IMG/VR virus record: IMGVR_UViG_3300022902_000970 | Location: 1-60,305 of that record | Length of the DNA: 60,305 nt | From: a virus | Taxonomy: Duplodnaviria; Caudoviricetes | Strand: one strand, 5' to 3' | Part shown: positions 23,307 to 46,901 of the stretch, piece after piece | Layout of the letters: each line of letters opens with the position of its first letter | Numbering within the stretch: the stretch's first letter is position 1 | Notes under the pieces: generated by a model | Databases searched by the model: none | What the model saw: only the letters and a program-made list of their open reading frames with translations | Told to the model about the DNA's origin: nothing | Program-made: the position numbers and the translations under genes

Positions 23307-25109
23307 ATGGTAAAAAAATTCACCCCCCCTATTGATTATACAGCGAGAGACTTTGATTCTATTAAATCTTCGTTAATAGAATATGCTAAAAGATATTACC
23401 CAAACACTGCTACAGATTTTAATGATGCTTCTTTTGGAGCACTGATGGTTGATATGGTGTCTTACGTAGGAGATGTTTTATCTTTTTATCTAGATTATCA
23501 AGCATCCGAATCTTTTTTAGATTCCGCAATTGAGTTAAAAAATGTAATACGTTTAGCTAAACAATTAGGATATAAATATGACTCTGAAGTCACTGCCTAC
23601 GGTATAGTTTCTTTGTATATTCAAGTTCCTGCCAATCCTTCAGGACTCGGACCCGATACGCGATATTTACCAGTCCTTCGAGAAGGAACTAGAGCTTCTT
23701 CTACATCTCGCGTACCTTTTATTTTATCGCAGGACGTGGATTTTAATTCAGCCGACGCGCAGGTTTTAGTAGCGCAAGCGGATGAGACAACCGGCAATCC
23801 TTTATCTTATGGTGTTAAAATGTATGGAGAAGTAGTATCCGGCGACATTGGAACTTACACATTTCCTCTTGGAACTGATGTTGCCTTCCCAAAGGTTTTC
23901 TTAAACACCCCTTCAGTTGCAGAGATTTTATCGGTGTTTGACGGCGAAGGTCATGAATATTATGAAGTAGAATATCTCTCACAAGATATAATATATAAAA
24001 GCTTGCCAAATCGCGGTGCCGACAAAGACACTGTTCCGTCTATTTTAAAAACTGTTGCGGTGCCTCGTCGTTTTGTTTTAGATAAAACTCCTGAAGGATC
24101 TTTTTTACAATTTGGTGGAGGCTCCACTTCAGACGCTATTATTAAAAATGATGATATCCTTAATCCTAACAATATAGCTCTTAAGATGCATGGAAAAAGT
24201 TATATTAGTGCTACTTCTTTTGATCCTTATAAATTAACTAAAAACAACAGCCTGGGTGTTGCGCCCTCTAACACAACTATCACAGTTACTTATCGCTCGA
24301 ACCTAACTGGATTAATTAACTTGGGTGTGGGTGAGCTATCCAGCATAGATGTGGCTTTAATGCTGTTTGAGGAGGAAAACTCTCTCACACCAGGAACAAT
24401 GCTGACTGTGAAGAACAGCTTAGAAGTAACCAACGAAGCTCCTGTTGCTGGAGATGTACAATTTCCAACTCTTGATGAAGTTAAGATTCGCGCCCAAAAC
24501 GCTTATTCTACTCAAAACCGAGCGGTAACCGTAGATGATTACAAAAGCTTGGTATACAGGATGCCTCCTAAGTTTGGCAAGATAAAAAAATGTAGAATTA
24601 TGCAGGATAAAGACTCTTTTAAACCCAATATGAACTTATACACTATCGGTGTCGGATTAGAAAACACTTTACAACCTTTAAATAATAAAATTAAAGTAAA
24701 CTTAAAAAATTGGCTTTCTAACTATAAAATGATAAATGATACGTTGGATATTTTAGATGCAAATATTGTAAATTTTGGCATAAAATATAAAGTTATAGGA
24801 GAAACTAATATTAATAAATTTGATTTAATGCAAGACATCTCTGTAGCGCTTGAAAATCACTTCAGCAATCCGCCGGAAATTGGCGAGCCTTTTTATATTA
24901 CAGATGTTTACAATGTTATCAATGTGTTAGACAATGTAGTGGACACAGTAGATGTAGATGTTTTTATTCAAAATGGCGCCCTATATTCTGACTACAGTAT
25001 TAATCTAACGGAAGCTATATCTCCTGATGGAAGGTTTATTAAACTACCGCAAGACGCTATATACGAAATAAAATTTATAGAAGATGATATTCAAGGTAAG
25101 ATTGTATAA
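23307..25109 (+). CDS. Baseplate wedge protein, T4 gp6/P2 gpJ-like
   Basis: DYTARDFDSIK, DFNDASFG, SYVGDVLSFYLD, LAKQLGY, LQFGGG, QNRAVTVDDY. Confidence 0.92.
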   Translation: MVKKFTPPIDYTARDFDSIKSSLIEYAKRYYPNTATDFNDASFGALMVDMVSYVGDVLSFYLDYQASESFLDSAIELKNVIRLAKQLGYKYDSEVTAYGIVSLYIQVPANPSGLGPDTRYLPVLREGTRASSTSRVPFILSQDVDFNSADAQVLVAQADETTGNPLSYGVKMYGEVVSGDIGTYTFPLGTDVAFPKVFLNTPSVAEILSVFDGEGHEYYEVEYLSQDIIYKSLPNRGADKDTVPSILKTVAVPRRFVLDKTPEGSFLQFGGGSTSDAIIKNDDILNPNNIALKMHGKSYISATSFDPYKLTKNNSLGVAPSNTTITVTYRSNLTGLINLGVGELSSIDVALMLFEEENSLTPGTMLTVKNSLEVTNEAPVAGDVQFPTLDEVKIRAQNAYSTQNRAVTVDDYKSLVYRMPPKFGKIKKCRIMQDKDSFKPNMNLYTIGVGLENTLQPLNNKIKVNLKNWLSNYKMINDTLDILDANIVNFGIKYKVIGETNINKFDLMQDISVALENHFSNPPEIGEPFYITDVYNVINVLDNVVDTVDVDVFIQNGALYSDYSINLTEAISPDGRFIKLPQDAIYEIKFIEDDIQGKIV

Positions 25110-26641
25110 TGGCTATTAAACGATATTCTGCAATTAAAGATACCACAATTTCCAATGCTTACAGATCTAATTTAAGTGGCACCGCCACCGGATCTAATAT
25201 GGGCTCGGCAGACGCTTTAGAAGTTTTTTCCATATATGGTCAGATATCTAATAGCTCTGGCTTTTCCAGGGAACAGTCTCGTATTCTAATACAGTTCCCT
25301 GCCACCGGAACTACAAGCATTAAATCGGATCGAAATGCTGGAACTATTCCTGCCTCGGGAAACGTATCGTTTTATTTAAATTTGTACAATGCTGTAACTC
25401 CAAACACAGTTCCAAAGAAGTTTAAATTAAACTTATATGCCATTGACGCAGGTTGGGACGAAGGTTTTGGTTTGGACATGGAGGAGTATAAAAACATTGG
25501 AGTTGCCAACTGGGATCAACGAGCCGCCAATGCTGATTGGTCTTATACAGGAGGCTCTTACATCACTACTTCTTCGATGACAGATGGCGGAGCGTATGCA
25601 TTTTTTGAAGACGGAACAGAAGATCTATCGGTAGATGTTACTCCGTATGTAGAGTCGTGGATCAAAGGAGACGCTGGCAGCGGCTTTGATAATTTTGGAT
25701 TTTTAGTTGCCTTTACTCCTACTGAAGAAAGCGCTTCTCGATCCTATTATGATAAAAAATTCTTTGCTAGAAGTAGCGAGTATTTCTTTAAGCGACCCAA
25801 TATCGAAGCAAGGTGGAATAACTCTAACACTGATGACCGAGGCAAGTTTTATCTTTCCAGTACCTTGGCACCAGCCTCAGATAATATCAACACTCTATAT
25901 CTGTATAATTATGTTAGAGGTCAACTGCAAGATATTCCTGGTCTCGGGAGTGATAAATATATTTATGTGAGCTTATTTTCTGGCTCTATTCTCAACACAA
26001 TTCCTACTGGCGCTGCATTGGAACTTTCAGCTGACGACGCCGGTCGGGTCAGGGCGGATTATAACACTGTAGTAACCGGCGGTATCTCCTCAACAGGCAT
26101 ATATACAGCTTCTTTCGCATTTACAGGGTCTTCTTCGTTGACTGATGTCTTCGACGTCTGGTTCACAGGAAGTCATACTCACGGTCTCGCTACGACCGCA
26201 ACTAATCAATTCCATACGGGTAATGTTTCAGTTAAACAATTAGATGCGTCAAATGTCAATCCTACTCCTCAATATGTTACAAAAATTACTAATTTAAAGC
26301 CATCTTATACTAGAGACGAAGAACCAAAGATGCGAGTATATACAAGAAAAAAAGACTGGTCTCCAAACATATACACTGTTGCAAACTCCGATATTCAGAC
26401 TGACAATGTAGAAAAATCTTATTACAGAGTTATAAGAACTATAGATAATTTAGAAGTCATCTCTTATGGTACGGGAAGCGATCAACAGACCAAATTATCA
26501 TACGATGTAAGCGGAAATTATTTTAACCTGGATATGAATCTTTTAGAAAGCGGCTACATGTATGATTTAAAATTTGCTTACTATCTGAACGGCGCGTATA
26601 AAGAACAACCAGAGAGTTTTAAGTTTAGAGTGGAGGATTAA
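25109..26641 (+). CDS. Virion structural protein (DNRLRE-like beta-sandwich N-terminus)
   Basis: 'KDTTISN...SNMG...SRILIQF...YLNLYNA...WDEG.G...NW...W...GG...DVTPYVESWI...NFGFLV...P.IEARW' pattern; baseplate context. Confidence 0.65.
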   Translation: MAIKRYSAIKDTTISNAYRSNLSGTATGSNMGSADALEVFSIYGQISNSSGFSREQSRILIQFPATGTTSIKSDRNAGTIPASGNVSFYLNLYNAVTPNTVPKKFKLNLYAIDAGWDEGFGLDMEEYKNIGVANWDQRAANADWSYTGGSYITTSSMTDGGAYAFFEDGTEDLSVDVTPYVESWIKGDAGSGFDNFGFLVAFTPTEESASRSYYDKKFFARSSEYFFKRPNIEARWNNSNTDDRGKFYLSSTLAPASDNINTLYLYNYVRGQLQDIPGLGSDKYIYVSLFSGSILNTIPTGAALELSADDAGRVRADYNTVVTGGISSTGIYTASFAFTGSSSLTDVFDVWFTGSHTHGLATTATNQFHTGNVSVKQLDASNVNPTPQYVTKITNLKPSYTRDEEPKMRVYTRKKDWSPNIYTVANSDIQTDNVEKSYYRVIRTIDNLEVISYGTGSDQQTKLSYDVSGNYFNLDMNLLESGYMYDLKFAYYLNGAYKEQPESFKFRVED

Positions 26642-26643
26642 AA

Positions 26644-29600
26644 ATGTCTCTAAAGGACTTATTTAAAGACATTGAAAGAATCGGAACAACCACCACCGCT
26701 TCAGCACCCGATGTTCCTGTTATTAAAGACGAAATAGAATCGGTTAGTTTTGCGCGTCAGGTTCAAGAAAGACAAAAATCGTTTGTTCCTCATGTGGATT
26801 TCACGCAAGCTAAGAACTTTGCTAAATACGGTTCCGCAGAAGAATATTATGCAAAAGGTATTGAATATATTTATTCATACTACCCTTATGACGGCTCGCT
26901 AAAAGAAAAAGAAGAGTGGTATAATGATGTTACTTATTTAGAACAATATGTATTTGATCATGAATATCCTCGCACAAATGGATATGTGATTTTATCCGCT
27001 GACGGTTGGGGGACAAGCACGATAACCGATGGTTATGGTCTTCCCTCGTCACTAGAGTACATACAAGTTAAAAGTGGACCTCATGAAAAAAACATATGGG
27101 ATGCAAGCAAAGACAGAGAAGAAAATTTAAAATTCGCTCTTACCGGAGGTCTTACAGTAGAGTTTTGGCTAAACAAGACTGAGTTTGTAACTACAGAGAC
27201 CAAGAAAGAAGTTATTTTTGATTTATGGAACGGGAAACACTTTAATGATACTGAGTATGGTAGATTTAGAATAGAACTCTCGGGAACATCTCCAGGCGCA
27301 GCCTTCCGACTTACTGCTTTATCAGGCACAAGTGGTTTTCACGATGCACCAATTGGAGAAGTAGTTACACCGTCCGTAGTTTCTAACGGGGATTGGTCAC
27401 ACTATGCTTTTTCTCTGCACAATACAGGTTCCACCGTCTTGGTAGAAATGTATAAAGACGGCGTATTTATAGAATCAGCCGCAACTGGAAGCGTCGTCGG
27501 TCATGTCACCGGTACTATGATTGCTAATATAGGGGCTTTGCGCACTGCTACTTTAAATACTTCTGCCGCCACGGGTTCGGGTAAGCTTTCGGGCTCCCTG
27601 GATGAATTTAGATTTTGGAAGTCACGGCGCACCGCCAGAGATATTGGAAGATATTATATTTCTCAAGTCGGCGGAGGGACAAACACTGACGACGCTAATA
27701 CAGAATTGGGGCTATACTATAAATTCAACGAAGGCATCGTAGGTGACAGTACTTATGACCGAACAGTACTCGACTACTCGGGTCGTCTTAGCAACGGCGT
27801 CTGGACGGGATATACTCCTAATTCTCGTAACACAGGTTCAGCTATGGTTCTATCAGGAGAAACTACTTTCGAGTTTAAAGATCCTATAATTTATTCTACG
27901 AACCCTTCAGTCGTAGCTCTTTTAAATTCAAAAAAAGAACTGGGAGAGAGATATGATATTAATAATCCCGCAAATATGTACAACAGTTTTCCTTCTTGGA
28001 TTATAGACGAAGATAGCGACGCAGGCAGCGAACTAAAGAATCTAACTCAAATCATGTCTAGTTATCTCGACGAACTATACCTCCAAATAGAAAATGTACC
28101 CGCAATCAAAGATAGAGAATATCCTTCGGGTAGTTTATTAACTGGAAGTTTTAAGCCTTATCCTTTTTCTAAACAATTACTTACTAGTCACGGATTTAAT
28201 ACGCCAGAATTATTTGTTGACACCAGCGTTATAGAACAGTTTTTGTCCCGCAACGAAAAAATTAAATATGAAGAAAAAATCTATAATACAAAAAACCTTA
28301 TTTATCACAACATTTATAATAATTTATTAAATATCTTTAAATCTAAAGGAACAGAAAAGTCCATCCGTAATTTGATCAGAGCATACGGAGCCAATGAAGA
28401 TATAGTGGCAATTAATGTTTACGGACACAACGAGCCATTTGAATTAAGAAAAAATGTTGAACAAAGAACTTTTAGAAATAAAGTTATAGATTTTAATCAA
28501 AGTGATAGAAATGTAGCAACTATTTTTCAATATCAAACAGGCTCGGGCACAACCTCTTATATTTCTGGCTCTAGGTTAAATGACCTTACAGTACCAAACA
28601 CTGTTGAATGTGAAGTATTTTTCCCAAAAAAAGCACAACAGGGTCTCTCTAGCTACTATTATTATCCTACAATTACGTCCTCGTTATTCGGTCAGCATAC
28701 TGTTAATTTAGGTGCAGGCGATATTAATGTTTTGCAGTGGGCAGATAATGATGATGCTTCTTTCCAAGTATATGCTGTCAGGGATGTAATTGACTCAACG
28801 AGAGCTAAATTTGTTGTTACTGGTGCTGCTTTTGCTCCTTTAACAACTAGTTTCTATTCCCATGTTTATGAAAATTCTAAATGGAACTTTGCTGTTAGAT
28901 TAAAACCTTCCCGTGAGTTTGGAGATTTAGTATACCACGGTTCTAACACCAGTTATTATTTAGAATTTTATGGAGTTCATGAATCAATGGGCGCCATCGA
29001 ACATGAGTTTTTTCTTACAAGCAGTCTTTCTGCTACCGAAGGAGAAGCATGGTCTAACGCACCCAAGCGCCTTTACGCCGGCGCCCACAGAACAAATTTT
29101 ACAGGTAGTTTGCTTGAACATACTGATGTGAAAATAGCTAATGTGCGCTTTTGGTTGTCCTACTTAAACAACGAAGTTATTCAAGACCACGCCAAGAGTT
29201 ATGAAACATATGGACCAGCGCAGCCATTAAACGATGAAGGTTTTACACATGTAAATCTCGATAATACAGAAATTCCTTCTTTAGAAACTTTAGCATTAAA
29301 TTGGAATTTCCGAAATGTTTCTTCATCCGCTGACGCTAGTGGTCGTCTGTTTATCGACGATTTTTCATCTGGTTCATCTGAAATGGCTAGTCGATATTCT
29401 TGGGTTGGAGATATTACCAAACAATTGTACTCAGGGAGAGCCGACTTCTTTTTAGCTAATGAACCTAAAGCCTCGGATATCGAATTCACATTTTCTACTA
29501 GAAATAGATTACCCGAAACTTTTATTAGTTCCGATATGATTTCTATTGGTGAAGACGCAGATAAAATTTTCACCTTAGATAGCCGACCAGTTCATTATTA

Positions 29601-32097
29601 CTTTTCTATTGAAAACAGTTTGTACCGAGTTATTTCTGAAGAAATAATAAACATTTTTTCATCTATTATTGATTTTAACAATCTTATCGGTGAGCCAGTC
29701 AATAAATATCGGGAAACTTATAAAGATTTGTCTAAATTAAGACAATTGTTCTTTGAAAGAGTAGAAAATAAACCTGATATTGAAAGATATTTTACTTATT
29801 TTAAACATATAGATAGCTTCCTTCAGCAGTGCCTGGAAAAGCTACTTCCAGCATCAGCCAATGTTTCTGATTCTGTTCTTAATATTGTTGAAAGCCACGT
29901 CCTAGAAAGAAATAAATATAGACATAAGTTTCCTACATTAGAAAGCAAACAAGGCGACCCTGAAGCCGCCATCCTTGGTATAAATGAAATGCTTTTTGAT
30001 TGGAAGCATGGACATGCGCCCGTGTCAAGTAGTAATGTCGCGGGTGTGTATCCTCACCTTGAAGGAACTGATCAAAATCAAAATTGTATTTACTGGCATG
30101 ATTTAGCAGAACGAGGAGGCTCTGTTTTAACTTCTGGCGATGCAACCGTAGATGAACAGAGAGAAACAATAAAAGATATTGTAAACTCTAGTGTATCCGG
30201 GAGCAATTACGCCACACGAAAGTTTGCCCAAGTTTATAATTTAACTACGAAAGAGCCTCTTGATCTGGGAGGCGGAGCAAACTTAAAATCTAACAATATA
30301 TTTGGATTTTACCGCCAAGTTATTAAATTCAACGACCGGACCAATTATATTAAAATACCTTTCGCTGAAAGCAAACTTAATAAAGATTGTAAGGAAGACA
30401 CAGAGCCGCAAGAATTAACTAAACGAGTAATGGATGTCCCAGCTATTGCTTACAACGATGGCGAGCCTCCCCGAGCTAATGATTACAAAGATGGAAGTGC
30501 AAATTTATTGCTGCCGTTTACTGTTTTTTCATCTTCCTTAGACACAGGCTATTTAGGGATCATTTCCGACGCTCATAGCGCTTCTTTTGAAAATATGCAC
30601 CTAGATGTTGTAGGAACGCACGGCACTAGACCGATGCAAGGTCCGTTCACAGAAAAATATGTCGGCGGTCTTCAATATCGCCACATTAACGTTAATTATT
30701 CTGCTTCTGCGGTTACTAACTCCGACACCACAGCGCGATTACTTGATACTCCCCTTACAAGACCAGAAGGATGGTTCTTAAAAGTCCCAACAACCCCAGG
30801 ACACGCTGCAAGCCTCTTAAGCGAATCTTTCTCCGCAACTGACCCTGTGGGTTGGACAAATGTAGGAAGTACCGCTACAGGACCTTCTGGGTGGATTCTG
30901 ACGCATTCTGGTCCCACTCCTTCCATGAACACCGGACCCGATGCTTCGTTTGACGGGGATTATTACGCTTATGCGGAAACTTCAACTCCCAATCACCCAG
31001 GCAGTGCTTTTGGTTTAGTAACTCCAATAATTGACGCTGCGGACATGGGCGGCGACAATTTCAGCGCCTCTTTTTATTATCATATGTATGGTACAAACGT
31101 CGGTAGTCTTAAAGTCCAACACTGCACCAGCCCTTTATTCGGAGCAAGTGTAACTGATTTATCAGTGGTCTGGGATTTTGTATCTGCTCCTGGAGCAGCT
31201 TCAGAACACATCGCAGGACAACAACAATCCGCTGCAACTGATCCTTACAAACAAGCTCAAATTGATCTTTCTGATTACGCAGGAACAGAATTTTACTTAC
31301 GCTTCTTTTACGAAGGAGGTATAACTTATTTATCTGATGTTGCAATCGATGCAATACAAGTTTCTGGTACATCAGGTGGTTCCACTTATAAACTTTTAGA
31401 TCCTTCTTGGGACAATCCTAACAAGCCAAGAGCCATGTATTACCGCGATGAAGTAGCGAAAAGACCTCTTAATATTAGAAATATTAAAATGACAGGATCT
31501 TCTCCTACTATTATTGGTAACTATTCTCACAATTATGAGGTGGTCAACATTCCGGGAAGAAATGTAAATAATTTATGGTTTGTACAAAACTCCGGTGCTG
31601 TGGGACAAACAGAGGTTTTATCCGATTATATAACCTCTAGCTATGATTACTCGCTAAAAAACCGGGATACTCTCCAAGATGGTAGTAAAAACCGCACTGT
31701 GATAGTGGAGAGATTTTCTGCACCCGGCGGTCCTGAAGTGATGAGTCGTGGATTTTTAGATGTAACCTCGGAAACGTACTCCGTTTATAACTGCTTAAAC
31801 TACAGAAACTCCACTGTCCGAAACAACTTAAATCTTTGGGAAAAACATCATAGTATATGGGGAGGGTACGATGGAGTTTATGGCTCCCCCACGGCATCAT
31901 ATCATCAGGTTCAAAGGAATACAGGGTTGAGGCTTCAATTGAGTGGAAATTTAGTATTAGCAGGGTCGAGTGTCAATAATGGTATGCCCGTTATAACTGC
32001 CTCTTATTATGATAATGGCTTTGTAACCCATCAGATTCCACAAACCGACGCCGGATATGCTTGGATTTCTGGTTCGATTACTGGGTCGCTAATTTAA
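26644..32097 (+). CDS. Large baseplate/tail protein: LamG (ConA-like) domains, gp7/gpI-like core, MAM domain
   Basis: LTVEFWL...WSHYAF...SGSLDEFRFW...LYYKFNEG (LamG). IFKSKGTEKSIRNLIRAYG (gpI/gp7-like KGT motif). MAM signature at about 30820-31370. Confidence 0.75.
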   Translation: MSLKDLFKDIERIGTTTTASAPDVPVIKDEIESVSFARQVQERQKSFVPHVDFTQAKNFAKYGSAEEYYAKGIEYIYSYYPYDGSLKEKEEWYNDVTYLEQYVFDHEYPRTNGYVILSADGWGTSTITDGYGLPSSLEYIQVKSGPHEKNIWDASKDREENLKFALTGGLTVEFWLNKTEFVTTETKKEVIFDLWNGKHFNDTEYGRFRIELSGTSPGAAFRLTALSGTSGFHDAPIGEVVTPSVVSNGDWSHYAFSLHNTGSTVLVEMYKDGVFIESAATGSVVGHVTGTMIANIGALRTATLNTSAATGSGKLSGSLDEFRFWKSRRTARDIGRYYISQVGGGTNTDDANTELGLYYKFNEGIVGDSTYDRTVLDYSGRLSNGVWTGYTPNSRNTGSAMVLSGETTFEFKDPIIYSTNPSVVALLNSKKELGERYDINNPANMYNSFPSWIIDEDSDAGSELKNLTQIMSSYLDELYLQIENVPAIKDREYPSGSLLTGSFKPYPFSKQLLTSHGFNTPELFVDTSVIEQFLSRNEKIKYEEKIYNTKNLIYHNIYNNLLNIFKSKGTEKSIRNLIRAYGANEDIVAINVYGHNEPFELRKNVEQRTFRNKVIDFNQSDRNVATIFQYQTGSGTTSYISGSRLNDLTVPNTVECEVFFPKKAQQGLSSYYYYPTITSSLFGQHTVNLGAGDINVLQWADNDDASFQVYAVRDVIDSTRAKFVVTGAAFAPLTTSFYSHVYENSKWNFAVRLKPSREFGDLVYHGSNTSYYLEFYGVHESMGAIEHEFFLTSSLSATEGEAWSNAPKRLYAGAHRTNFTGSLLEHTDVKIANVRFWLSYLNNEVIQDHAKSYETYGPAQPLNDEGFTHVNLDNTEIPSLETLALNWNFRNVSSSADASGRLFIDDFSSGSSEMASRYSWVGDITKQLYSGRADFFLANEPKASDIEFTFSTRNRLPETFISSDMISIGEDADKIFTLDSRPVHYYFSIENSLYRVISEEIINIFSSIIDFNNLIGEPVNKYRETYKDLSKLRQLFFERVENKPDIERYFTYFKHIDSFLQQCLEKLLPASANVSDSVLNIVESHVLERNKYRHKFPTLESKQGDPEAAILGINEMLFDWKHGHAPVSSSNVAGVYPHLEGTDQNQNCIYWHDLAERGGSVLTSGDATVDEQRETIKDIVNSSVSGSNYATRKFAQVYNLTTKEPLDLGGGANLKSNNIFGFYRQVIKFNDRTNYIKIPFAESKLNKDCKEDTEPQELTKRVMDVPAIAYNDGEPPRANDYKDGSANLLLPFTVFSSSLDTGYLGIISDAHSASFENMHLDVVGTHGTRPMQGPFTEKYVGGLQYRHINVNYSASAVTNSDTTARLLDTPLTRPEGWFLKVPTTPGHAASLLSESFSATDPVGWTNVGSTATGPSGWILTHSGPTPSMNTGPDASFDGDYYAYAETSTPNHPGSAFGLVTPIIDAADMGGDNFSASFYYHMYGTNVGSLKVQHCTSPLFGASVTDLSVVWDFVSAPGAASEHIAGQQQSAATDPYKQAQIDLSDYAGTEFYLRFFYEGGITYLSDVAIDAIQVSGTSGGSTYKLLDPSWDNPNKPRAMYYRDEVAKRPLNIRNIKMTGSSPTIIGNYSHNYEVVNIPGRNVNNLWFVQNSGAVGQTEVLSDYITSSYDYSLKNRDTLQDGSKNRTVIVERFSAPGGPEVMSRGFLDVTSETYSVYNCLNYRNSTVRNNLNLWEKHHSIWGGYDGVYGSPTASYHQVQRNTGLRLQLSGNLVLAGSSVNNGMPVITASYYDNGFVTHQIPQTDAGYAWISGSITGSLI

Positions 32098-32115: not shown

Positions 32116-32121
32116 AATAAC

Positions 32122-35978: not shown

Positions 35979-37034
35979 ATGGAATTTTTTAATCAAAAAG
36001 AAGAAGTAATAGATATACAATTAACGCAGTATGGGAAGCGCATACTCAAAGAAGGTAACTTTAAACCAACTTATTACGCTTTTTTTGATAAAGATATACT
36101 TTACAATAAATACGGTGACGCGAGAGAGTCCGAACTTCAGAATGAAACAGAACCTCGAATCCGCGAAGAAACTCCTCGCTTAAAAGCTCAACATAATTTT
36201 ATTGGTATCGAAACTCAATTTAATGAAATGAAAGAAATTATTACTTTTAGCGAGAAATTCTCTAAATTTGAAATGATTCAAAAATTACAAGACACGGAGA
36301 ATACTTTTTTCTCTCCTAATTCAGCGATTGCGAACACCAAACTTGGAAATGAATATAGACCAAGCTGGGATTTGTCTTTTTACAATGAGAATCTTCAGTC
36401 AGTCACAGGCTCTCTCACTTCTTCTAATTCTCCAACTGTAAATATACCTCAACTTGAAGCTACGCTTGATTTTACTACTTTGATGTCTAACGCTACGCTT
36501 AATTTAGAAGACTCGACTAACGTAGCAAATAATGACTATTCAAGTGATTTGGAATGGTTTGAAAACGAACCTTTAGAATTTGAGGACGGCTCTATTATCA
36601 TTTTAAAAGACGATTTTCTGTTGATTGGAATAGACGAAAAAAACACTGATTTTTTAAGTGAAAATTTTGAGGTAGAGGTTTTCAGGATTGAAGAGACCAA
36701 AGGGGACAAATCGTCTACAGGACTCGAAGAAGACCAGAAAAAAACCAAACTCATCCCATTGCAATTTCTTCCATCACGCGCACCCAATCAAAGTGACATG
36801 TTTGATGAAGAAGAATTGGAAATAAAGATGGGTAACCCTAACTATGTGGAATACTTTTTTGATTTATTGATTGATAGCGAAATACCCGAAGGCATCTTCT
36901 GCAAAAAAGTAGGACAAGATGTTAAGTCTAATTTATATGTTAAGCAGATATTTAATTGTGATGAAACTGATTTTTCCCAAAAACAAGATTATAATGTATA
37001 TGACGACGATGATCTAGGAGAACCTTGCGAATGA
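35979..37034 (+). CDS. Hypothetical virion protein
   Basis: N-terminus 'IDIQLTQYGKRILKEGNFKPTYYAFFDKDILY' is similar to the N-terminus of the 43530 protein. Confidence 0.7.
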   Translation: MEFFNQKEEVIDIQLTQYGKRILKEGNFKPTYYAFFDKDILYNKYGDARESELQNETEPRIREETPRLKAQHNFIGIETQFNEMKEIITFSEKFSKFEMIQKLQDTENTFFSPNSAIANTKLGNEYRPSWDLSFYNENLQSVTGSLTSSNSPTVNIPQLEATLDFTTLMSNATLNLEDSTNVANNDYSSDLEWFENEPLEFEDGSIIILKDDFLLIGIDEKNTDFLSENFEVEVFRIEETKGDKSSTGLEEDQKKTKLIPLQFLPSRAPNQSDMFDEEELEIKMGNPNYVEYFFDLLIDSEIPEGIFCKKVGQDVKSNLYVKQIFNCDETDFSQKQDYNVYDDDDLGEPCE

Positions 37035-40540: not shown

Positions 40541-40627
40541 TAAAAGATAACAATAATGTTAGAACAACACACATCAGAAAAAGAAAAACTTTCCAGTTTC
40601 AAATCTCAAGCCCAAAAGGACTGCTAA

Positions 40628-43444
40628 ATGGTATCAAAAATTCATCTGACTCCTCTTCAAAGAGTGTATATCGAAGCGGACAACACTAATCTTGTAGACG
40701 CAGAAGCAACTGAAAATAATATTCAAACCTTAGCGCTTACTACTACTATATCTGGCGATCCATTCCGACAGGATGCAAATATCTTTTGGACACAACGTAA
40801 AGTAGTTTCCGATGCAGCCGAACGCAACATGGAATATCTTTACGATCCCGAAGGTCAGTTAAAGTTAATTTCAACCCCTGAATATTCCCTCTCTCCCACT
40901 AATAATGAAGAGTTTTGTATACATAGCACCGCACTAGGAGGAAAGAAAGTTTACTTTAGACCACCACCATCACAGGATGACGCTCTGTGGTCAATGAACG
41001 GATCTAATCTTCCAACTAAAACTGAGCAATATCACGTTTATGTGCCAAACAACGCAGACTACACCCGCTCAAAACTAAACGAGCACCTACAGGGCTCAGA
41101 CAGTTTCCTAATAAATAACGCCTCCAAGACATTACAGCCTTTATGGTGGGAACAGTGGATGGGTAAAAACTTTCCTCAAGGAAGTTCTTTTGGTGATCAT
41201 TATTTTTCTATGGACCTCCCCACTACTAAAGATATATCCTCAATCAGCCCTAATCAAAACTTTGTTCACATAAAAACAAATTATAATTTTTATTTTGATG
41301 AATACGAAAAGGTCATTGAATTTCCTGAAGTCCCTGAAGTTTTGTTACCAAATCTTTATACGTACATGTATGTATCCGATTGGAATTACGATATTAATCA
41401 AGCTAACTGGGATGAGTCACAATTTAAATATTTAAGCCCTTTCGTTAATCATGCGACATTTGGCGGACTCTTGCCAACTGACAACATAATCTCTATTTAT
41501 GCGGAAGGAGGATTGTCGGGACACCCAATGCAACTTGAGCCTTTAGGCTCTCTTAACAGATATCTCGACACATGGTCCAAGACAATAGAACAATATTTTG
41601 ATCCTAATTTTAAATTCAGCGCAGGTATACAAGATTTAGTACTCTCTGAAGTAGTACAGGATTTTGATAAAATTGCTTTTGCTGAAAGTTCTTATAAAAC
41701 AACCTTCCAGCACAACAGAACAGCTAAACAATTTCCTATGAATGTGGAGATTAATTTCTCTACTGACAATAGAAATAACTTCCTTAATATGCTAAAGCAA
41801 ACTAATCAATATGATAATCTGCTCATGTATTTAATGAACAGCCCAGGAGTAAACGGAACTCCCACCGTACTTTCTCAAGCCCAAGCCAAAACATCGATTG
41901 TTACAGATAGATTAGAGTGGAATTTAATAAACTTTTTTAATGAAATAGACCCTTTGACTAATAAATTCAACAGCGTTTTACAGAAAAAACAAGATTTTAT
42001 TTACCTGGGGAAAGTAGTGCCAAAAGCTCCCGAGAATCAATTTTTTAATCAACTAATGGCACTAGGTTTGAAAACAAAATTTAATAATTTTGCTAAGAAA
42101 CACACCAGAGGTTTTCAAGATATTTTAAATGGAAGTGAAGCTTATGAAGAAATAGTGCTGTATGAAATGGAAAAATGGTCTTCTAACATGAACGGCGAGC
42201 CTCAAGAACTACTACAGCGCTTTTATCTTCCAAACGACGAAGATAAGATTTTAACTTTTTTTGACACGCAGGTAAAATATAACAAATTTTATGTTTATAA
42301 AATGTTTGCTTATAAGTTGATTATAGGTTCGACTTACTTTTATTCTCAAGAGACTTCAGCGCCAGGAACTGGAACAGGTGAATCTTATGGGAGCGACCCA
42401 CTCGCTGGAGGTCAATCTCCGTTGGATAGCCCTATATCTTATTACTCCGATACCAAAATGGGAAGTGCGAACCTCACTGTTGAGATCACCCCTTCTCCTA
42501 AAATTGTGAAAGTTCCTTATTATAACGCCGGTCCTCCCCCAGTGTTTAGAGTTTCAGGCGATTCTTACGATTTTATCACAGGGAACCCTACAGACAATCA
42601 AGCACAACATCAAACTACATATGTTTTAGATGCTCCTCCCTTAGCACCAGAAGTAGAGATCGTCCCCCTAATGGAAGATCGCCGTGATATAATCATTAAC
42701 CTTAAAGACACCACAGGAGAAACTCACGCCACTCCGAAAGCTATTTTTACTTCTGCCGATAATGTTAAGTTTGATGACGCACTAATATTTAAATTAATAG
42801 CCGTGATGCAAAAAAAGAATGAAGATAATATTTCTCTAGAACAAGCCACCAAAATCTTTAATGAATGGCACTATTACACGATTAAGTTTTCTTCCGATGA
42901 TCCAGCGAAAGAGTTCCAAATCTTTAGAACTAAAACAAAACCTGTTATCTATCCTCAGTTTTCTAATTCTTTATACGAGGTTGTACCAGGTCCAAATGGC
43001 TCTACGAAGGTAAGATTAAATTACAATGAAAAAAATTATTTTGTTTTTAGAACTGTGGACAATCATGGCAAGTTTTCCAACCCTACTGATGTCTATGAAG
43101 TAGAAATTAAAGAAGATAGTGGAATTTCTTATCCGGTTATAAGAGTATTCAACTTGGTTGCTGAAAATGCCAAAACTTCTAAAACAAAGCACGTTTTTTC
43201 CTTGGCAGGGAGAAAGTTTATTTATCTTAAACCAGCTTTCGAGCAGTGGGAGATGACAGAAAAATATGCTGAAGCAGATTACAATAGTGCTTTTGATATA
43301 CCTGATTTTGGGATAGGCACATCCAAAGAGTCAGTTTTTCAAGAAAACAGAAAATTTAAAATTCGCTTAACATCTAAGAAAACTAATAGGAAAATAGATA
43401 TTAATGTTTCTTGTAAACAAAAGAATAAAAAAGTAATACAATAA
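40628..43444 (+). CDS. Large hypothetical virion protein with FN3/Ig-like C-terminal segments
   Basis: 'FFDTQVKYNKFYVYKMFAY', 'FQIFR...NYFVFRTVDNHGKFSNPT' resemble FN3-like strands. Confidence 0.6.
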   Translation: MVSKIHLTPLQRVYIEADNTNLVDAEATENNIQTLALTTTISGDPFRQDANIFWTQRKVVSDAAERNMEYLYDPEGQLKLISTPEYSLSPTNNEEFCIHSTALGGKKVYFRPPPSQDDALWSMNGSNLPTKTEQYHVYVPNNADYTRSKLNEHLQGSDSFLINNASKTLQPLWWEQWMGKNFPQGSSFGDHYFSMDLPTTKDISSISPNQNFVHIKTNYNFYFDEYEKVIEFPEVPEVLLPNLYTYMYVSDWNYDINQANWDESQFKYLSPFVNHATFGGLLPTDNIISIYAEGGLSGHPMQLEPLGSLNRYLDTWSKTIEQYFDPNFKFSAGIQDLVLSEVVQDFDKIAFAESSYKTTFQHNRTAKQFPMNVEINFSTDNRNNFLNMLKQTNQYDNLLMYLMNSPGVNGTPTVLSQAQAKTSIVTDRLEWNLINFFNEIDPLTNKFNSVLQKKQDFIYLGKVVPKAPENQFFNQLMALGLKTKFNNFAKKHTRGFQDILNGSEAYEEIVLYEMEKWSSNMNGEPQELLQRFYLPNDEDKILTFFDTQVKYNKFYVYKMFAYKLIIGSTYFYSQETSAPGTGTGESYGSDPLAGGQSPLDSPISYYSDTKMGSANLTVEITPSPKIVKVPYYNAGPPPVFRVSGDSYDFITGNPTDNQAQHQTTYVLDAPPLAPEVEIVPLMEDRRDIIINLKDTTGETHATPKAIFTSADNVKFDDALIFKLIAVMQKKNEDNISLEQATKIFNEWHYYTIKFSSDDPAKEFQIFRTKTKPVIYPQFSNSLYEVVPGPNGSTKVRLNYNEKNYFVFRTVDNHGKFSNPTDVYEVEIKEDSGISYPVIRVFNLVAENAKTSKTKHVFSLAGRKFIYLKPAFEQWEMTEKYAEADYNSAFDIPDFGIGTSKESVFQENRKFKIRLTSKKTNRKIDINVSCKQKNKKVIQ

Positions 43445-43481: not shown

Positions 43482-43529
43482 GAAATAAATGAGTATCCAC
43501 ATGGCACCAAGAGATAGAGGAGTACGAAG

Positions 43530-44483: not shown

Positions 44484-44494
44484 AGGAAAAATTA

Positions 44495-45688
44495 ATGGCT
44501 ACCGTATTTAAAACACTTACAAATAATGATATCACCACGACGAGGACGCTTCTTCATGAAGCTATCCCAATCACAGGGAGTATCGTTTCTGGTACTTACA
44601 ATGCTGCCGGAGCAGTCGCATTAGGCTCAGAAGCCAATATTAAAACTTATGCACATGGAATGTTTGAATCTGTGTATGATTACCCTTATCTAAGCTCGTC
44701 AGCGAATCATATTATTGATATTACGCTCGGGTATTCTACTTCTTCTTCTGAAAACAATGCCGACAACACTCAAAACAGTAAAAAAGTCAATATTTACACT
44801 GAACTTGCTCAAGTGCTGGTCGGCTACAATACCGACAATAACATCTTAAGGTTCGACGAAGATGGAAATATTAGTGACGGCGGCACCAAAGTTGATGAAT
44901 GTTTCTTTTTGAACTTTTCACGTCTCCTAGCTAAAGATGAAATTAAAAAAGGATCTTTTAACCTTGAATTAGGTATTGGTACTGCTTTTGAAGAAAATCC
45001 TGCCGACCAAGATACTTTTCAAAATAGAATTTTGATTACCGACTACAGCGGAACCTCGGGTTATAAAGTTAATTCACCAGCTGGGGAATATGGAATTCTT
45101 TATGCAAGCTCCTCGGCGCAAGGAGGTTCAACGACACAACCTGCGGTTTTATATACCGGAAGCGCTACCTTTGAACAAGCCGCTTATGGCGTCCCGTGTG
45201 GATTGCTTTTCTATCAAGCTGGCATCGCGGTTGTCTCCGGTTCTGTTTTCAATGGAAATCAAATCGGAGGAATCTTAAACCACTCCTCGTCTTTTCTGGG
45301 CTCTAACACATATGGCTCTCCATTAGCGGGCGATACCGGCATGGGCGGCGGATTTTATTCAGTGACGGGAACATCAATCAACGATATGTCCAACGCTATT
45401 AGAAATCGTATTTATAATGTATCCTTCAACAACACCACAGAGTTAAATTCTACGATTTACTTCTGCCGTGCAAACCACAATGATTTTAATTACAGCACCA
45501 ACCCCACTTACCTGACGGAAAGTAAAATAAGAGTTAAAAACACCTCCACTGATAGTCCTGTCTCTTACGCTACAACGGTAGGGCTGTATTCCTCCGACAA
45601 TGCACTTCTTGCGGTAGCTAAGCTTTCGGAGCCTTTAAAGAAGACTCCTGAAACAGAACTTACCTTGAGAGTTAGACTGGATTACTAG
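44495..45688 (+). CDS. Virion structural protein (tail-collar-like C-terminus)
   Basis: C-terminal 'TTVGLYSSDNALLAVAKLSEPLKK'; paralogous C-terminus with the next gene. Confidence 0.7.
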   Translation: MATVFKTLTNNDITTTRTLLHEAIPITGSIVSGTYNAAGAVALGSEANIKTYAHGMFESVYDYPYLSSSANHIIDITLGYSTSSSENNADNTQNSKKVNIYTELAQVLVGYNTDNNILRFDEDGNISDGGTKVDECFFLNFSRLLAKDEIKKGSFNLELGIGTAFEENPADQDTFQNRILITDYSGTSGYKVNSPAGEYGILYASSSAQGGSTTQPAVLYTGSATFEQAAYGVPCGLLFYQAGIAVVSGSVFNGNQIGGILNHSSSFLGSNTYGSPLAGDTGMGGGFYSVTGTSINDMSNAIRNRIYNVSFNNTTELNSTIYFCRANHNDFNYSTNPTYLTESKIRVKNTSTDSPVSYATTVGLYSSDNALLAVAKLSEPLKKTPETELTLRVRLDY

Positions 45689-45698
45689 GCGATATGTT

Positions 45699-46901
45699 AT
45701 GTCTTTATACAAGTTTGGTCGAAATGATATATTTGTCACAAATATAAAGACCTATCCAAAAGCAAATTTTTTAATTTATTCGGGCTCTTATTATTATAAC
45801 CACGAAGCCCCTCAATCAGGCACATGGTCCGACCCGGTAACTAATGTACCAGTAGGCAACCTTAGCTTATATGAGTACAATGTTGATCGCCCTGCGAATC
45901 AATTTATCTATCCTTTTGTAACCAAGCAAGGCACCCTCACGGCTTTTAAAACTATATCTAAAGACTCTTTCATGGGTTTTGACTATGGAGATGTCTTGTC
46001 TGGGAGTTACCCTCTATCGGCTACTATTGATAGAAAATTTTATTTAGAGTACACAGGGAAGCTCCCTATCCCTACTGCTAATGCCACGTATCGCCCTCAT
46101 GTGATGGCTTTGAGAAATATCCTAAATGACAACCGAAGATTAAGCCCTCATTATCAATTTTCCGCATCGTCTGATAGTATTTTAAAAGGGTGGGATAAAG
46201 ACACTCAAATGATGACGATGATAAGCATCCCATCTATTTTCTACGGGTCATCGATCAAACAGGGTTCTGTAGATCTTAAATTTTACACCACAGGTTCTTT
46301 GGCAGGACAACTTATTGACTATTACAAGAATGGAGAGTTAATTCAATATTCTGGCTCGATTTCCGAAAATAACGGAAAAGTGGCAGGAGTGGTTCTTTAT
46401 AATCAAGGAATTATTTTATTAACAGGCTCTTGGGATGTTTCAGCCCACCAAGAAAAATATAGGAATAGCGCTACTGATTACAATGCTGCTTGGGTTTATT
46501 ATGGAGCCTCTGGTTCTGCTGTCAATGATTATCTTAAAGAGTCAAGCTACACTCTTGATTTCGAAGGAAACCATACAATACCTTCGCTCACTATGTTTGC
46601 TCATGCGAAAAAACATCAATTAAACAACTCTTCTAATCCTACTTTTGTTGTGAGTAGTTCTTATAACACCAACATTATAACTGGGTCTTCCAAATATATG
46701 GAATACGATAAAGTAAAAGTTAAAAATATCGTCAGCAGCTCTTTTGTCAACTATAGTGCTAGTTTTGAAAGACAAACTTATATTTCGGAAATAGGCATAT
46801 ACGATAAAGATAGAAATCTTATTGCGATTGCTAAAGTAGCGAATCCTATGAAAAAGACAGAAAACAACGATTACACATTCAAGCTCAAGATAGACATTTG
46901 A
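45699..46901 (+). CDS. Virion structural protein (tail-collar-like C-terminus)
   Basis: C-terminal 'YISEIGIYDKDRNLIAIAKVANPMKK'. Shares IK.GS, G...Y.QG and N.S.NPT motifs with the 44495 protein. Confidence 0.7.
   Translation: MSLYKFGRNDIFVTNIKTYPKANFLIYSGSYYYNHEAPQSGTWSDPVTNVPVGNLSLYEYNVDRPANQFIYPFVTKQGTLTAFKTISKDSFMGFDYGDVLSGSYPLSATIDRKFYLEYTGKLPIPTANATYRPHVMALRNILNDNRRLSPHYQFSASSDSILKGWDKDTQMMTMISIPSIFYGSSIKQGSVDLKFYTTGSLAGQLIDYYKNGELIQYSGSISENNGKVAGVVLYNQGIILLTGSWDVSAHQEKYRNSATDYNAAWVYYGASGSAVNDYLKESSYTLDFEGNHTIPSLTMFAHAKKHQLNNSSNPTFVVSSSYNTNIITGSSKYMEYDKVKVKNIVSSSFVNYSASFERQTYISEIGIYDKDRNLIAIAKVANPMKKTENNDYTFKLKIDI

What the first reader, a model, noticed from the sequence alone, without database searches (positions are those of the whole stretch)
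25109..46901. [ST]-[GAS]-[ST] tripeptide saturates a subset of tail proteins: candidate sequon for a phage virion glycosylation system
Seen: the proteins at 25109, 26644, 32122, 44495 and 45699 are studded with dispersed, non-tandem motifs, usually after a hydrophobic or aromatic residue. By hand I count about 14 in the 400-aa 45699 protein (YSGS, QSGT, LSGS, LSAT, FSAS, TTGS, YSGS, LTGS, NSAT, ASGS, VSSS, ITGS, VSSS, YSAS). Many more occur in 25109 (LSGT, ATGS, FSGS, YTAS, FTGS x2) and 26644 (LSGT, NTGS, ATGS, LSGS, LTGS, ISGS, ITAS, ITGS). The motif looks sparse in the neighbouring giants (15541, 37025, 40628) and in the enzymes, and codons vary, so it is not a DNA repeat. Known: some phages glycosylate virion proteins with their own GTs. 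Inference: a short surface sequon recognised by the GTs of the 1-9.5 kb cluster, giving a densely glycosylated baseplate/tail (shielding or adhesion). A defined sequon-plus-pathway system of this kind is not one I can name.
Basis: partly seen in the sequence, partly recalled or inferred. Interest (0 to 1): 0.85.

Follow-up and report, generated by a model that had tools for sequence, protein, structure and literature searches.

The report
Ser/Thr-Gly-Ser motif on virion proteins
A short motif (hydrophobic residue, Ser/Thr, Gly, Ser/Thr) is packed far beyond chance into some outer particle proteins of this uncultured aquatic phage and its relatives, which also carry a conserved pair of sugar-adding enzymes, so it may be a sugar-attachment tag, but it could equally be only a structural turn.

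Summary
In the five named proteins TGS and SGS are the two most over-represented of all 8000 tripeptides. The form hydrophobic-[ST]-G-[ST] occurs 33 times against 3.4 expected. It survives local-composition shuffles, uses varied codons, and is absent from the neighbouring giant proteins, the enzymes and T4 structural proteins. Many sites are conserved across large protein families, and variable positions are still about 2x enriched. In two models the motifs tend to sit where a beta-strand ends and a loop begins.

The window's 1-9.5 kb block is a nucleotide-heptose-like pathway with one weak GT-like ORF. Clear GTs lie upstream of the window in relatives, including a tandem GT4 pair conserved in four related phage lineages and predicted to form a heterodimer. 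Across ten genomes, strong enrichment occurs only where the pair is present. However, this is confounded with phylogeny, weaker signals exist without the pair, and in fibres the motif is built into structural repeats. No chemistry exists.

I put a glycosylation acceptor at about 0.4 and a purely structural turn motif at about 0.4. Earlier unchecked notes of this scan report similar motifs on other DNA.

The parts
25109..26641 (+). 510-aa virion-block protein directly after the gp6-like wedge gene; motif-rich
   Evidence: 15 vs 5.2, z 4.5. Family of at least 4396 proteins. Seven of 15 sites kept in 34-65 of 65 homologs, with TGS at 455 in 65/65. Model pLDDT 76.
26644..32097 (+). 1817-aa protein with a LamG-type domain (164-334) and a MAM-like stretch; the most motif-rich protein
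   Evidence: 38 vs 13.2, z 7.1. Strict form 12 vs 1.9. Pfam Laminin_G_3 E 1e-9, MAM below cut-off. Eight motifs lie inside the LamG domain.
32122..35976 (+). 1284-aa virion-block protein with weaker enrichment
   Evidence: Loose motif 14 vs 7.9, z 2.3. Strict form 6 vs 0.94, p<0.0025.
44495..45688 (+). 397-aa motif-rich protein, paralog of 45699 over the C-terminal half
   Evidence: 13 vs 4.8, z 4.0. BLASTP to 45699 E 2e-15. Orthologs keep the motifs.
45699..46901 (+). 400-aa motif-rich beta-rich protein of unknown fold
   Evidence: 14 vs 3.2, z 6.3. 1011 clusters at E<=0.001. Eight of 14 sites kept in 45-82 of 87 homologs. Model pLDDT 82, pTM 0.73. Eight of 14 motifs start at a strand end. 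No confident fold match.
3..9482 (+). 3' part of a glycan cluster: nucleotide-heptose-like pathway with tailoring enzymes. Includes RmlD-like fragment 3-335, weak GT-like ORF 1083-2042, sugar C-methyltransferase 2033-3247, Fcl-like reductase 3244-4161, heptose-7-P-kinase-like 5471-6256, epimerase/dehydratase 6540-7469, heptose-1-P adenylyltransferase-like 7470-7874, HAD phosphatase 7858-8187, cupin 8162-8530 and 4,6-dehydratase-like 8532-9482.
   Evidence: Pfam and NCBIfam (all below equivalog cut-offs). No multi-pass membrane protein. By synteny with G001 the window starts about 8 kb downstream of the conserved GT pair.
22913..25109 (+). gp25-like (22913-23293) and gp6-like (23307-25109) baseplate wedge genes. 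They anchor the block as baseplate/tail and are not motif-enriched.
   Evidence: Pfam GPW_gp25 E 1e-11. PHROG baseplate wedge hits. 23307 has 3 vs 2.3.
15541..22851 (+). 2436-aa neighbouring giant protein; internal negative control
   Evidence: 8 vs 7.3, z 0.3. [ST]G[ST] 1 vs about 2.
37025..43444 (+). Two large neighbouring proteins (37025-40540 and 40628-43444); internal negative controls
   Evidence: 6 vs 5.6 and 1 vs 3.3. Flat under local shuffles.

Best explanation
Hydrophobic-[ST]-G-[ST], with [ST]-G-S as its core, is a clade-specific tag at beta-strand-to-loop junctions of outward-facing virion proteins. These are the baseplate-block proteins here, plus the capsid insertion domain, some fibres and the sheath in relatives.

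The reading I favour by a small margin is that the tag is the acceptor or recognition element for cytoplasmic O-glycosylation of folded or folding virion proteins. The enzyme would be the clade's conserved soluble GT4 pair, encoded just upstream of the window in relatives. Sugars would come from a variable nucleotide-sugar cluster, which in this window looks like an ADP-heptose-type pathway with 4,6-dehydratase, epimerase/reductase and C-methyltransferase tailoring.

Shown: the motif statistics, its conservation, its secondary-structure context in two models, the gene content and the co-occurrence. Inferred: that any sugar is attached, which GT does it, and which hydroxyl is used.
For: (1) Motif strength and specificity. 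TGS and SGS are the top two of 8000 tripeptides. The strict form occurs 33 vs 3.4, against 2 vs 2.6 in other virion-block proteins and 5 vs 5.8 in T4.

(2) It crosses unrelated folds. The motif-rich proteins include sequence-unrelated proteins, a LamG domain, the enlarged capsid insertion region in G002 and Mel-JY01, fibres and the sheath in immuto and Mel-JY01. Tube, tape measure, a second S74 fibre and enzymes are flat.

(3) Both hydroxyl positions interchange S/T but rarely become N/D. At site 242 the counts are T80 S3 N2 of 87; at site 198, T47 S35 D2.

(4) After masking conserved sites, the rest of both families is still about 2.1x enriched (340 vs 165 and 434 vs 202), with about 4 lineage-specific motifs per protein.

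(5) Geometry. Twelve of 29 motifs start at a strand end vs 18 of 112 other S/T (p 0.005). This is the geometry published for the heptosyltransferase Aah (passages of PMC3835316).

(6) GT content. G002 has a roughly 25-kb glycan cluster with four clear GTs and no membrane or export proteins. A nuclease-GT4-GT4 trio is syntenic in G002, immuto and Mel-JY01 while the rest of the clusters differ. Both GTs keep E-x7-E, and their top 120 relatives are 55-100% identical.

(7) Complex model of the pair. Score 0.89, best of 3 controls 0.00. That mark was reached by 116 of 157 solved complexes and 2 of 215 mismatched pairs. Runs agree in at least 97% of contacts and partner pLDDT is at least 90. My own alignments were used and GT4 dimers are solved, so this supports binding without showing it.

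(8) Strict test across genomes. With the pair: G002 5/92 ORFs, immuto 6/85, Mel-JY01 5/73, RM378 2/90. Without it: LR756508 0/235, P-SSM4 0/74, T4 0/42, LIS04 0/81, HTVC008M 2/80 (only about 3x).

(9) Immuto DNA carries fdPreQ1, and no sugar nucleoside was reported (passages of bioRxiv 2023.04.13.536721), so DNA is an unlikely target there.
Against: No chemical evidence of any glycan exists.

Many sites, including the Gly, are positionally conserved over 40-50% identity, as expected of structural turns. In fibres the motif is part of structural repeats: roughly 113-aa repeats in a G002 fibre, and hexapeptide runs in immuto.

HTVC008M lacks the pair (it has only a sub-threshold GT2-like hit), yet it has two proteins at 8 vs 2.5 and a capsid with [ST]G[ST] 6 vs 0.8. 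LR756508 orthologs keep an attenuated loose signal without GT#2.

GT content, motif strength and capsid similarity rank mostly alike, so phylogeny confounds the association; LR756508 is the one exception, with a capsid match as close as Mel-JY01's but no strict-form enrichment.

The GTs are generic GT4 by sequence, and nothing marks them as protein-specific. The window itself holds no clear GT. The p25109 model is only moderate (pTM 0.49), and its strand-end excess alone is weak (4/15 vs 10/70). The baseline for the loose motif is already about 1.4x genome-wide in all phages tested.
Confidence: 0.4

Rival explanations
1. The motif is a purely structural tight beta-turn or strand-end cap, with Gly in the turn and Ser/Thr hydroxyls capping the backbone. 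It is inherited with the domain families and fibre repeats that this clade uses for its baseplate, fibres and capsid decoration. The glycan/GT clusters serve another target, such as the host envelope or a small molecule.
For: High positional conservation including Gly: G199 and T242 are at least 90% conserved, and TGS at 455 is kept in 65/65. Motifs sit at strand-turn-strand junctions in the p45699 model. They are embedded in repeat units of fibres. An attenuated signal persists in orthologs of LR756508 without the pair and in HTVC008M. Motif-rich proteins in the three lineages are largely syntenic homologs.
Against: No enrichment in 14 beta-rich T4 structural proteins (5 vs 5.8), in P-SSM4 or in LIS04. 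One of two S74 fibres in G002 is flat, as are the large neighbouring virion-block proteins. The motif crosses unrelated folds. N/D, the usual turn alternatives, rarely replace S/T. Variable positions remain about 2x enriched. This reading leaves a conserved, highly abundant soluble GT pair without a target.
Confidence: 0.4
2. The motif is read by something other than a glycosyltransferase. Candidates are another Ser/Thr modification (phosphorylation, acylation), a chaperone or assembly factor, or direct binding of arrays of surface hydroxyls to host polysaccharide.
For: The same statistics as above show that something selects ordered S/T-G-S/T on outward proteins. Relatives encode chaperonin, Hsp20 and FKBP. 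Two hydroxyls two residues apart lie on one face of a strand (inference).
Against: No kinase or acyltransferase is conserved alongside the motif in the comparisons made (one search covered the glycan-cluster proteins only). The only conserved clade-specific enzymes found next to the sugar genes are the two GT4s.
Confidence: 0.12
3. The enrichment is an artefact of Ser/Thr/Gly-rich composition, low-complexity stretches or a DNA repeat.
For: Motif-rich proteins are richer in S/T (0.16-0.21) than their neighbours.
Against: The enrichment survives shuffles within 10-residue windows. It is order-specific, since TGS is enriched but TGT, SST and TST are not. Codons vary. Sites are dispersed and conserved in homologs.
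Confidence: 0.02

Closest known systems
Autotransporter heptosylation by Aah/TibC (BAHT family) in E. coli
   Same: A cytoplasmic, soluble enzyme modifies many Ser residues of a beta-rich surface protein. [quoted passage not shown] Mapped serines are followed by Gly or Ala, and the donor is ADP-heptose (PMC4358343, passages). The window encodes HldE-like kinase and adenylyltransferase domains.
   Different: No GT9/BAHT-type enzyme was found in the window, G001, G002 or immuto. The conserved enzymes here are GT4. The targets are phage virion proteins of several folds, not a beta-helix passenger domain.
Mycobacteriophage virion glycosylation (Freeman et al. 2023; seen only as cited in passages of PMC12619734; paper not held)
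   Same: Phage-encoded GTs decorate the phage's own virion proteins.
   Different: There the glycans are reported at the C-termini of capsid and tail-tube subunits. Here the candidate sites are dispersed inside folded domains, the tube is not enriched, and the hosts and phage type differ.
GtfA/GtfB O-GlcNAc transferase of serine-rich-repeat adhesins (recalled, not read here)
   Same: Two adjacent GT4-type proteins are predicted to form a heterodimer. The acceptor is of the S-small-S type, and the reaction is cytoplasmic.
   Different: Both phage proteins keep the E-x7-E signature, so neither looks like a non-catalytic partner. There is no family-level match; the only adhesin O-GT hit is SdgA at E 1e-4. 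The acceptors are not low-complexity repeats.
Giant-virus autonomous capsid/fibril glycosylation (chloroviruses, mimiviruses; PMC4691112 seen in a search listing)
   Same: Virus-encoded soluble GTs plus nucleotide-sugar pathways modify virion proteins at atypical sites. The only solved structure both phage GTs match is chlorovirus GT B736L, weakly (E 5e-7 and 2e-3).
   Different: These are eukaryotic viruses with mostly N-linked, atypical sequons (recalled), and they have no relation to this motif.

Membership tests
BAHT (Aah/TibC) protein heptosylation system | GT9-like/BAHT heptosyltransferase enzyme | tested here: not met
   PF01075 was searched in G000, G001, G002, immuto and Mel-JY01. The only hit is inside a 1226-aa Mel-JY01 protein (E 4e-9); there is none in the window's lineage.
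BAHT (Aah/TibC) protein heptosylation system | ADP-heptose donor pathway | tested here: inconclusive
   Window 5471-6256 matches rfaE domain I (E 6.5e-38) and 7470-7874 matches rfaE domain II (E 7e-31), with a HAD phosphatase alongside. All are below equivalog cut-offs, and no GmhA-type isomerase was identified.
BAHT (Aah/TibC) protein heptosylation system | [quoted passage not shown] | tested here: inconclusive
   On two AF2 models, 12 of 29 motifs start at a strand end vs 18 of 112 other S/T (p 0.005). Full strand-loop-strand: 6 of 29 vs 9 of 112 (p 0.08). These are models only, and no modification has been mapped.
Mycobacteriophage-type virion glycosylation | Phage-encoded glycosyltransferases | tested here: inconclusive
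   The window has one weak GT-like ORF (E 7.5e-4, below cut-off). Relatives G001 and G002 have clear GTs upstream.
Mycobacteriophage-type virion glycosylation | Glycans on C-terminal extensions of capsid and tail tube | tested here: not met
   Motifs are dispersed. The tube in G002 has none, and the capsid motifs lie in the internal insertion region.
Mycobacteriophage-type virion glycosylation | Glycan demonstrated on virion proteins | not testable with these tools
   Needs mass spectrometry or glycoprotein staining.
GtfA/GtfB-type two-protein O-glycosyltransferase | Heterodimer of two GT4-like proteins | tested here: inconclusive
   Complex prediction score 0.89 vs best control 0.00. This is a model, and related GT4 dimers are solved.
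GtfA/GtfB-type two-protein O-glycosyltransferase | One subunit non-catalytic; sequence membership | tested here: not met
   Both keep an invariant E-x7-E. There is no GtfA/GtfB family hit in NCBIfam.
Bacteroidota general O-glycosylation sequon D-(S/T)-(A/I/L/V/M/T) | Asp immediately before the acceptor Ser/Thr | tested here: not met
   A charged residue occupies position -1 at 0 of 49 [ST]G[ST] sites. The sequon itself is recalled.
Generic beta-turn / ST-turn structural motif | Gly-containing tight turn between strands, positionally conserved | tested here: met
   DSSP of the models. Conservation of G and S/T at 8 of 14 and 7 of 15 sites.
Generic beta-turn / ST-turn structural motif | Occurs comparably in unrelated beta-rich phage proteins | tested here: not met
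   T4 structural proteins 5 vs 5.8. Strict test: P-SSM4 0/74 ORFs, LIS04 0/81. The neighbouring giants are flat.

The most novel reading that the evidence does not exclude
A globally abundant clade of aquatic T4-like phages (this record, Flavobacterium phage immuto, Microcystis phage Mel-JY01 and thousands of metagenomic relatives) uses a virion glyco-code. A conserved soluble GT4 heterodimer would read hydrophobic-[ST]-G-S hairpin tags on every outward-facing particle protein and prime them with sugar. A fast-changing downstream sugar cluster (here a tailored heptose) would then diversify the coat, much as O-antigen loci make serotypes. This would be the first defined sequon-plus-enzyme system for phage particle glycosylation, with different clades using different short tags.
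Probability: 0.3. Interest if true: 0.85.

Novelty: new variant of a known kind. Interest (0 to 1): 0.62.

Why it matters
Virion glycosylation by phage-encoded enzymes is documented for only a few phages, and no acceptor rule is known. If this motif is an acceptor, glycosylation sites could be predicted from sequence across an abundant marine and freshwater phage clade. It would also explain why these lytic phages devote 10-25 kb to sugar genes, and it bears on adsorption, particle stability, grazing and immune or defence recognition. The idea is directly testable because two relatives with the same motif and GT pair are in culture. If instead the motif is purely structural, it is a strong clade-specific turn signature that is useful for recognising these virion proteins, and the target of the conserved GT pair remains an open question.

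Tried and rejected
Composition or low-complexity artefact: rejected by local shuffles and order specificity.

DNA-level repeat: rejected, because codons vary.

Generic property of beta-rich tail proteins: rejected for T4. One of 31 proteins reaches z>3, and that is the non-virion gp32; the best virion protein is gp18 at z 2.5. P-SSM4 and LIS04 also show nothing.

Replacement of N-G/D-G turns by S/T-G: NG is mildly depleted (0.67x) in both motif-rich and motif-poor window proteins, so this is not specific.

Shared hidden domain among the motif-rich proteins: no similarity between 25109 and 26644, or between 43530 and the 45699 family.

Fold assignment of p45699: Foldseek found nothing at E<=0.001. 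VIA wide gave a best Z of 6.0 (phage P1 head chain, 93 residues, rmsd 3.9), a generic beta-sandwich level.

Bacteroidota sequon and BAHT membership: not met.

DNA glycosylation as the GT target: no hydroxymethylase among the G002 ORFs scanned (record 75% complete). Immuto DNA is reported to carry fdPreQ1 only (passages). This target is weakened but not excluded.

The [ST]-G-x-T variant noted elsewhere in this scan: not enriched here (6 vs 4.7).

The search for related loci with the 71-sequence family alignment failed because the alignment is too diverse. Wider co-variation therefore rested on ten genomes only.

Literature: two searches for phage virion glycosylation or sequons and one for mycobacteriophage glycosylation listed no paper describing a dispersed phage sequon. 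'Mel-JY01' returned no paper. Freeman 2023 is not held.

Full report
WHAT THE WINDOW IS. The window is a 60,305-bp IMG/VR viral record estimated 33% complete. All large ORFs are on the + strand. Positions 3-9482 encode nucleotide-sugar enzymes. A gp55-like late sigma factor follows at 10256-10999. Then comes a structural block with a gp25-like gene (22913) and a gp6-like baseplate wedge gene (23307), the proteins of the finding, and then RuvC-like, primase and a fused Mre11/Rad50-like gene. Close relatives are viral contigs G001 (92% identity for p45699), G002 and G003 (68%).

OBSERVATION. Against 1000 composition shuffles per protein (47 ORFs), [ST][GAS][ST] is enriched in 25109 (15 vs 5.2, z 4.5), 26644 (38 vs 13.2, z 7.1), 44495 (13 vs 4.8, z 4.0) and 45699 (14 vs 3.2, z 6.3). 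It is weakly enriched in 32122 (14 vs 7.9, z 2.3). The giants 15541, 37025 and 40628 and all enzymes are flat. The enrichment persists when residues are shuffled only within 10-, 20- or 40-residue windows, so it is not local composition.

The signal is order-specific. TGS occurs 22 vs 2.7, SGS 14 vs 3.5, SGT 10 vs 2.8 and SAS 9 vs 3.0, whereas TGT, SST and TST are at expectation. Only G (49 vs 10.7) and A (23 vs 9.6) stand out as middle residues. In an unbiased scan of all tripeptides, TGS and SGS rank first and second.

Position -1 is hydrophobic at 67% of 49 sites (background 32%) and never charged, and all Ser, Thr and Gly codons are used. Hydrophobic-[ST]-G-[ST] occurs 33 vs 3.4 (z about 16) in the five proteins, 2 vs 2.6 in seven other virion-block proteins and 5 vs 5.8 in 14 T4 structural proteins. 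With a hydrophobic or small residue after it, the count is 30 vs 1.7.

CONSERVATION. p45699 belongs to a family with 1011 clusters at E<=0.001. In 87 aligned members (40-64% identity), 8 of its 14 motif sites are kept in 45-82 members, with S/T interchange at both hydroxyl positions, G/A/S in the middle and few N/D. The family's median z is 4.2, and 84% of members exceed 3.

The unrelated p25109 family (at least 4396 proteins) behaves the same way. Seven of 15 sites are kept in 34-65 of 65 members, TGS at 455 is kept in all 65, and the median z is 4.8.

After masking the conserved sites, the remainder of both families is still about 2.1x enriched (340 vs 165; 434 vs 202), with about four motifs per protein at lineage-specific columns. 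This suggests pressure on motif number as well as on fixed positions. Two cautions apply: alignment error can inflate this, and the genome-wide baseline of the loose motif is already about 1.4x.

STRUCTURE. The AF2 model of p45699 (pLDDT 82, pTM 0.73) is beta-rich and has no confident fold match. Foldseek found nothing at E<=0.001, and the best VIA Z was 6.0 over 93 residues. Eight of its 14 motifs start exactly where a strand ends and a loop begins, against 8 of 42 other S/T. The p25109 model is weaker (pLDDT 76, pTM 0.49) and gives 4 of 15 vs 10 of 70. Pooled, the figures are 12 of 29 vs 18 of 112 (Fisher p 0.005). Full strand-loop-strand gives 6 of 29 vs 9 of 112 (p 0.08).

WHICH PROTEINS CARRY IT. 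In G002 (158 kb, 75% complete) the enriched set is the orthologs of the window's proteins, plus one of two S74-chaperone tail fibres (28 vs 13.1; the other is 9 vs 8.0) and the gp23-like capsid protein ([ST]G[ST] 8 vs 1.5). Tube, tape measure and enzymes are flat, and the sheath is weak.

In the G002 and Mel-JY01 capsid proteins the motifs cluster in the enlarged insertion region between the N-arm and the conserved core. That this region faces outward rests on recalled knowledge of T4 gp23.

Microcystis phage Mel-JY01 and Flavobacterium phage immuto share the baseplate synteny and show the same pattern in their paralog pair, large baseplate proteins, several fibres or spikes and the sheath.

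In fibres the motif is part of repeats. One G002 fibre has repeats of roughly 113 aa, each carrying two copies of the motif. Immuto proteins have hexapeptide-spaced runs of it.

SUGAR GENES. The window encodes:
- an HldE-like kinase domain (5471, E 6.5e-38);
- an adenylyltransferase domain (7470, E 7e-31);
- a HAD phosphatase, a 4,6-dehydratase-like enzyme (8532, E 3e-88), an Fcl-like reductase, a cupin and a sugar C-methyltransferase.

All score below equivalog cut-offs. This points to a nucleotide-heptose-derived sugar. Only one weak GT-like ORF is present (1083-2042, E 7.5e-4; no PDB relative).

In G002 the cluster extends upstream to about 25 kb. It includes three GT4 and one GT2, UDP-GlcNAc 2-epimerase, aminotransferase, acetyltransferases, WbqC and methyltransferases. 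No multi-pass membrane protein lies in either cluster. The window's first base maps to G001 position 29069, about 8 kb downstream of G001's GT#1.

A CONSERVED GT PAIR. All-against-all BLAST shows a syntenic trio in G002, immuto and Mel-JY01: a PD-(D/E)XK nuclease, GT4 #1 and GT4 #2, at 29-32% identity and E from 1e-34 to 1e-72. Nothing else in the clusters is shared. RM378 has GT#1 and a weak adjacent GT#2-like stretch.

Both GTs are generic GT4 by sequence; the only solved structure both match is chlorovirus GT B736L, weakly. Both keep an invariant E-x7-E; that this marks retaining GT4 catalysis is recalled. Both have thousands of metagenomic relatives, the top 120 being 55-100% identical.

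The complex model supports a heterodimer. The score is 0.89 and the best of 3 controls is 0.00. That mark was reached by 116 of 157 solved complexes and 2 of 215 mismatched pairs. Runs agree in at least 97% of contacts, and partner pLDDT is at least 90. I used my own alignments and GT4 dimers are solved, so this supports binding but does not show it.

CO-VARIATION TEST. The strict criterion was hydrophobic-[ST]-G-[ST] with n>=4 and p<=0.005 under 20-residue local shuffles, applied to ORFs of at least 200 aa.

Genomes with the GT pair:
- window: 4 of 28 ORFs pass (the pair is inferred from G001);
- G002: 5 of 92;
- immuto: 6 of 85 (150 of 160 kb scanned);
- Mel-JY01: 5 of 73 (124 of 190 kb scanned);
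- RM378: 2 of 90.

Genomes without the pair:
- LR756508: 0 of 235 (GT#1-like only);
- P-SSM4: 0 of 74;
- T4: 0 of 42 (68 of 169 kb scanned);
- LIS04: 0 of 81;
- HTVC008M: 2 of 80, each only 8 vs 2.5.

HTVC008M has no GT1-family hit and only a sub-threshold GT2-like hit, yet its capsid has [ST]G[ST] 6 vs 0.8. LR756508 orthologs keep an attenuated loose signal. So strong enrichment is seen only with the pair, but the relation is graded. For most genomes it runs parallel to capsid similarity, so phylogeny confounds it. LR756508 is the most informative contrast: it has homologous virion proteins but no pair and no strict enrichment.

TARGET OF THE GTs. Lack of export machinery argues for a cytoplasmic acceptor. 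No DNA hydroxymethylase was seen among the G002 ORFs scanned. For immuto, LC-UV-MS found dG replaced by fdPreQ1 and reported no sugar nucleoside (passages of bioRxiv 2023.04.13.536721).

COMPARISON WITH KNOWN SYSTEMS. The nearest mechanism is autotransporter heptosylation. [quoted passage not shown] TibC uses ADP-heptose and modifies serines followed by Gly or Ala (PMC4358343, passages). Membership fails, because no GT9/BAHT enzyme is present in this lineage.

Mycobacteriophage virion glycosylation is the nearest phage precedent, but it is reported at the C-termini of capsid and tube (cited in PMC12619734, passages). GtfA/GtfB resembles the two-GT4 architecture, but both phage GTs look catalytic. 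The Bacteroidota sequon is excluded by the absence of Asp at -1.

EARLIER NOTES OF THIS SCAN. Unchecked notes report similar short S/T-Gly motifs on virion proteins of other uncultured phages, several alongside two clade-specific GTs. I tested two of their variants here. [ST]-G-x-T is not enriched (6 vs 4.7), and [LIV]-S-[AGS] is mildly enriched (35 vs 19.1). These notes are leads, not support.

VERDICT. The motif is real, specific, conserved and clade-wide. Whether it is a glycosylation acceptor (about 0.4) or only a structural turn signature (about 0.4) cannot be settled without chemistry. That chemistry is feasible on the two cultured relatives.

Noticed in passing
window 48958-52110: A single 1050-aa ORF fuses an Mre11/SbcD-like metallophosphoesterase (1-221) with a Rad50/SbcC-like ATPase (368-1040). 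In HTVC008M and P-SSM4 these are annotated as separate genes.
   Followed up: no
window 11296-14529: A 1077-aa protein with an Amidase_2 domain (736-811) lies just after the late sigma factor. GC rises to 0.44 with negative GC skew at 12-14 kb inside this gene.
   Followed up: no
window 26644-32097: This protein has a LamG-type domain (164-334) and a MAM-like stretch (1415-1573, just below cut-off). Eight motif copies lie inside the 170-aa LamG domain, and the C-terminus ends in two motifs four residues apart.
   Followed up: partly
window 6246-6536: A 96-aa Mpo1-like protein with one hydrophobic segment sits in the middle of the sugar cluster and is conserved in G002 at 93% identity.
   Followed up: no
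window 1083-2042 and 4154-5095: These two ORFs of the sugar cluster are absent from G002 (no BLAST match), while their neighbours are 72-94% identical. The cluster content therefore varies between close relatives.
   Followed up: partly
G002 (L024-L026, L019): The relative encodes Cpn60 chaperonin, Hsp20, FKBP isomerase, peptide deformylase, two ClpP-like proteases, PEP carboxykinase, IMP dehydrogenase, adenylosuccinate synthetase, a Pol III alpha-type polymerase and two Dam-type methyltransferases.
   Followed up: no
L027 (G002 78297-81002) vs L023:1156-3729: These are two tail fibres with the same S74 intramolecular-chaperone C-terminus. One has roughly 113-aa tandem repeats, each carrying two motif copies, and is enriched. 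The other is flat.
   Followed up: partly
Mel-JY01 record 83441-84932 (L016): The GT#1 ortholog is split into two adjacent ORFs covering its N- and C-terminal halves.
   Followed up: no
proteins P0463, P0497, P0505, P0508: Some GT#2 homologs are 650-705 aa and carry an added GT2 domain, so fused forms of the second GT exist.
   Followed up: no
window virion block: The Asn-Gly dipeptide is at 0.67x of expectation in both motif-rich and motif-poor virion-block proteins, against 0.97x in T4 structural proteins.
   Followed up: no
window 45560-45688 and 46775-46901: The last roughly 40 residues of the paralogs 44495 and 45699 form a conserved C-terminal module. It is also found in immuto, RM378 and LR756508 at up to 46% identity over 82 aa.
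   Followed up: partly
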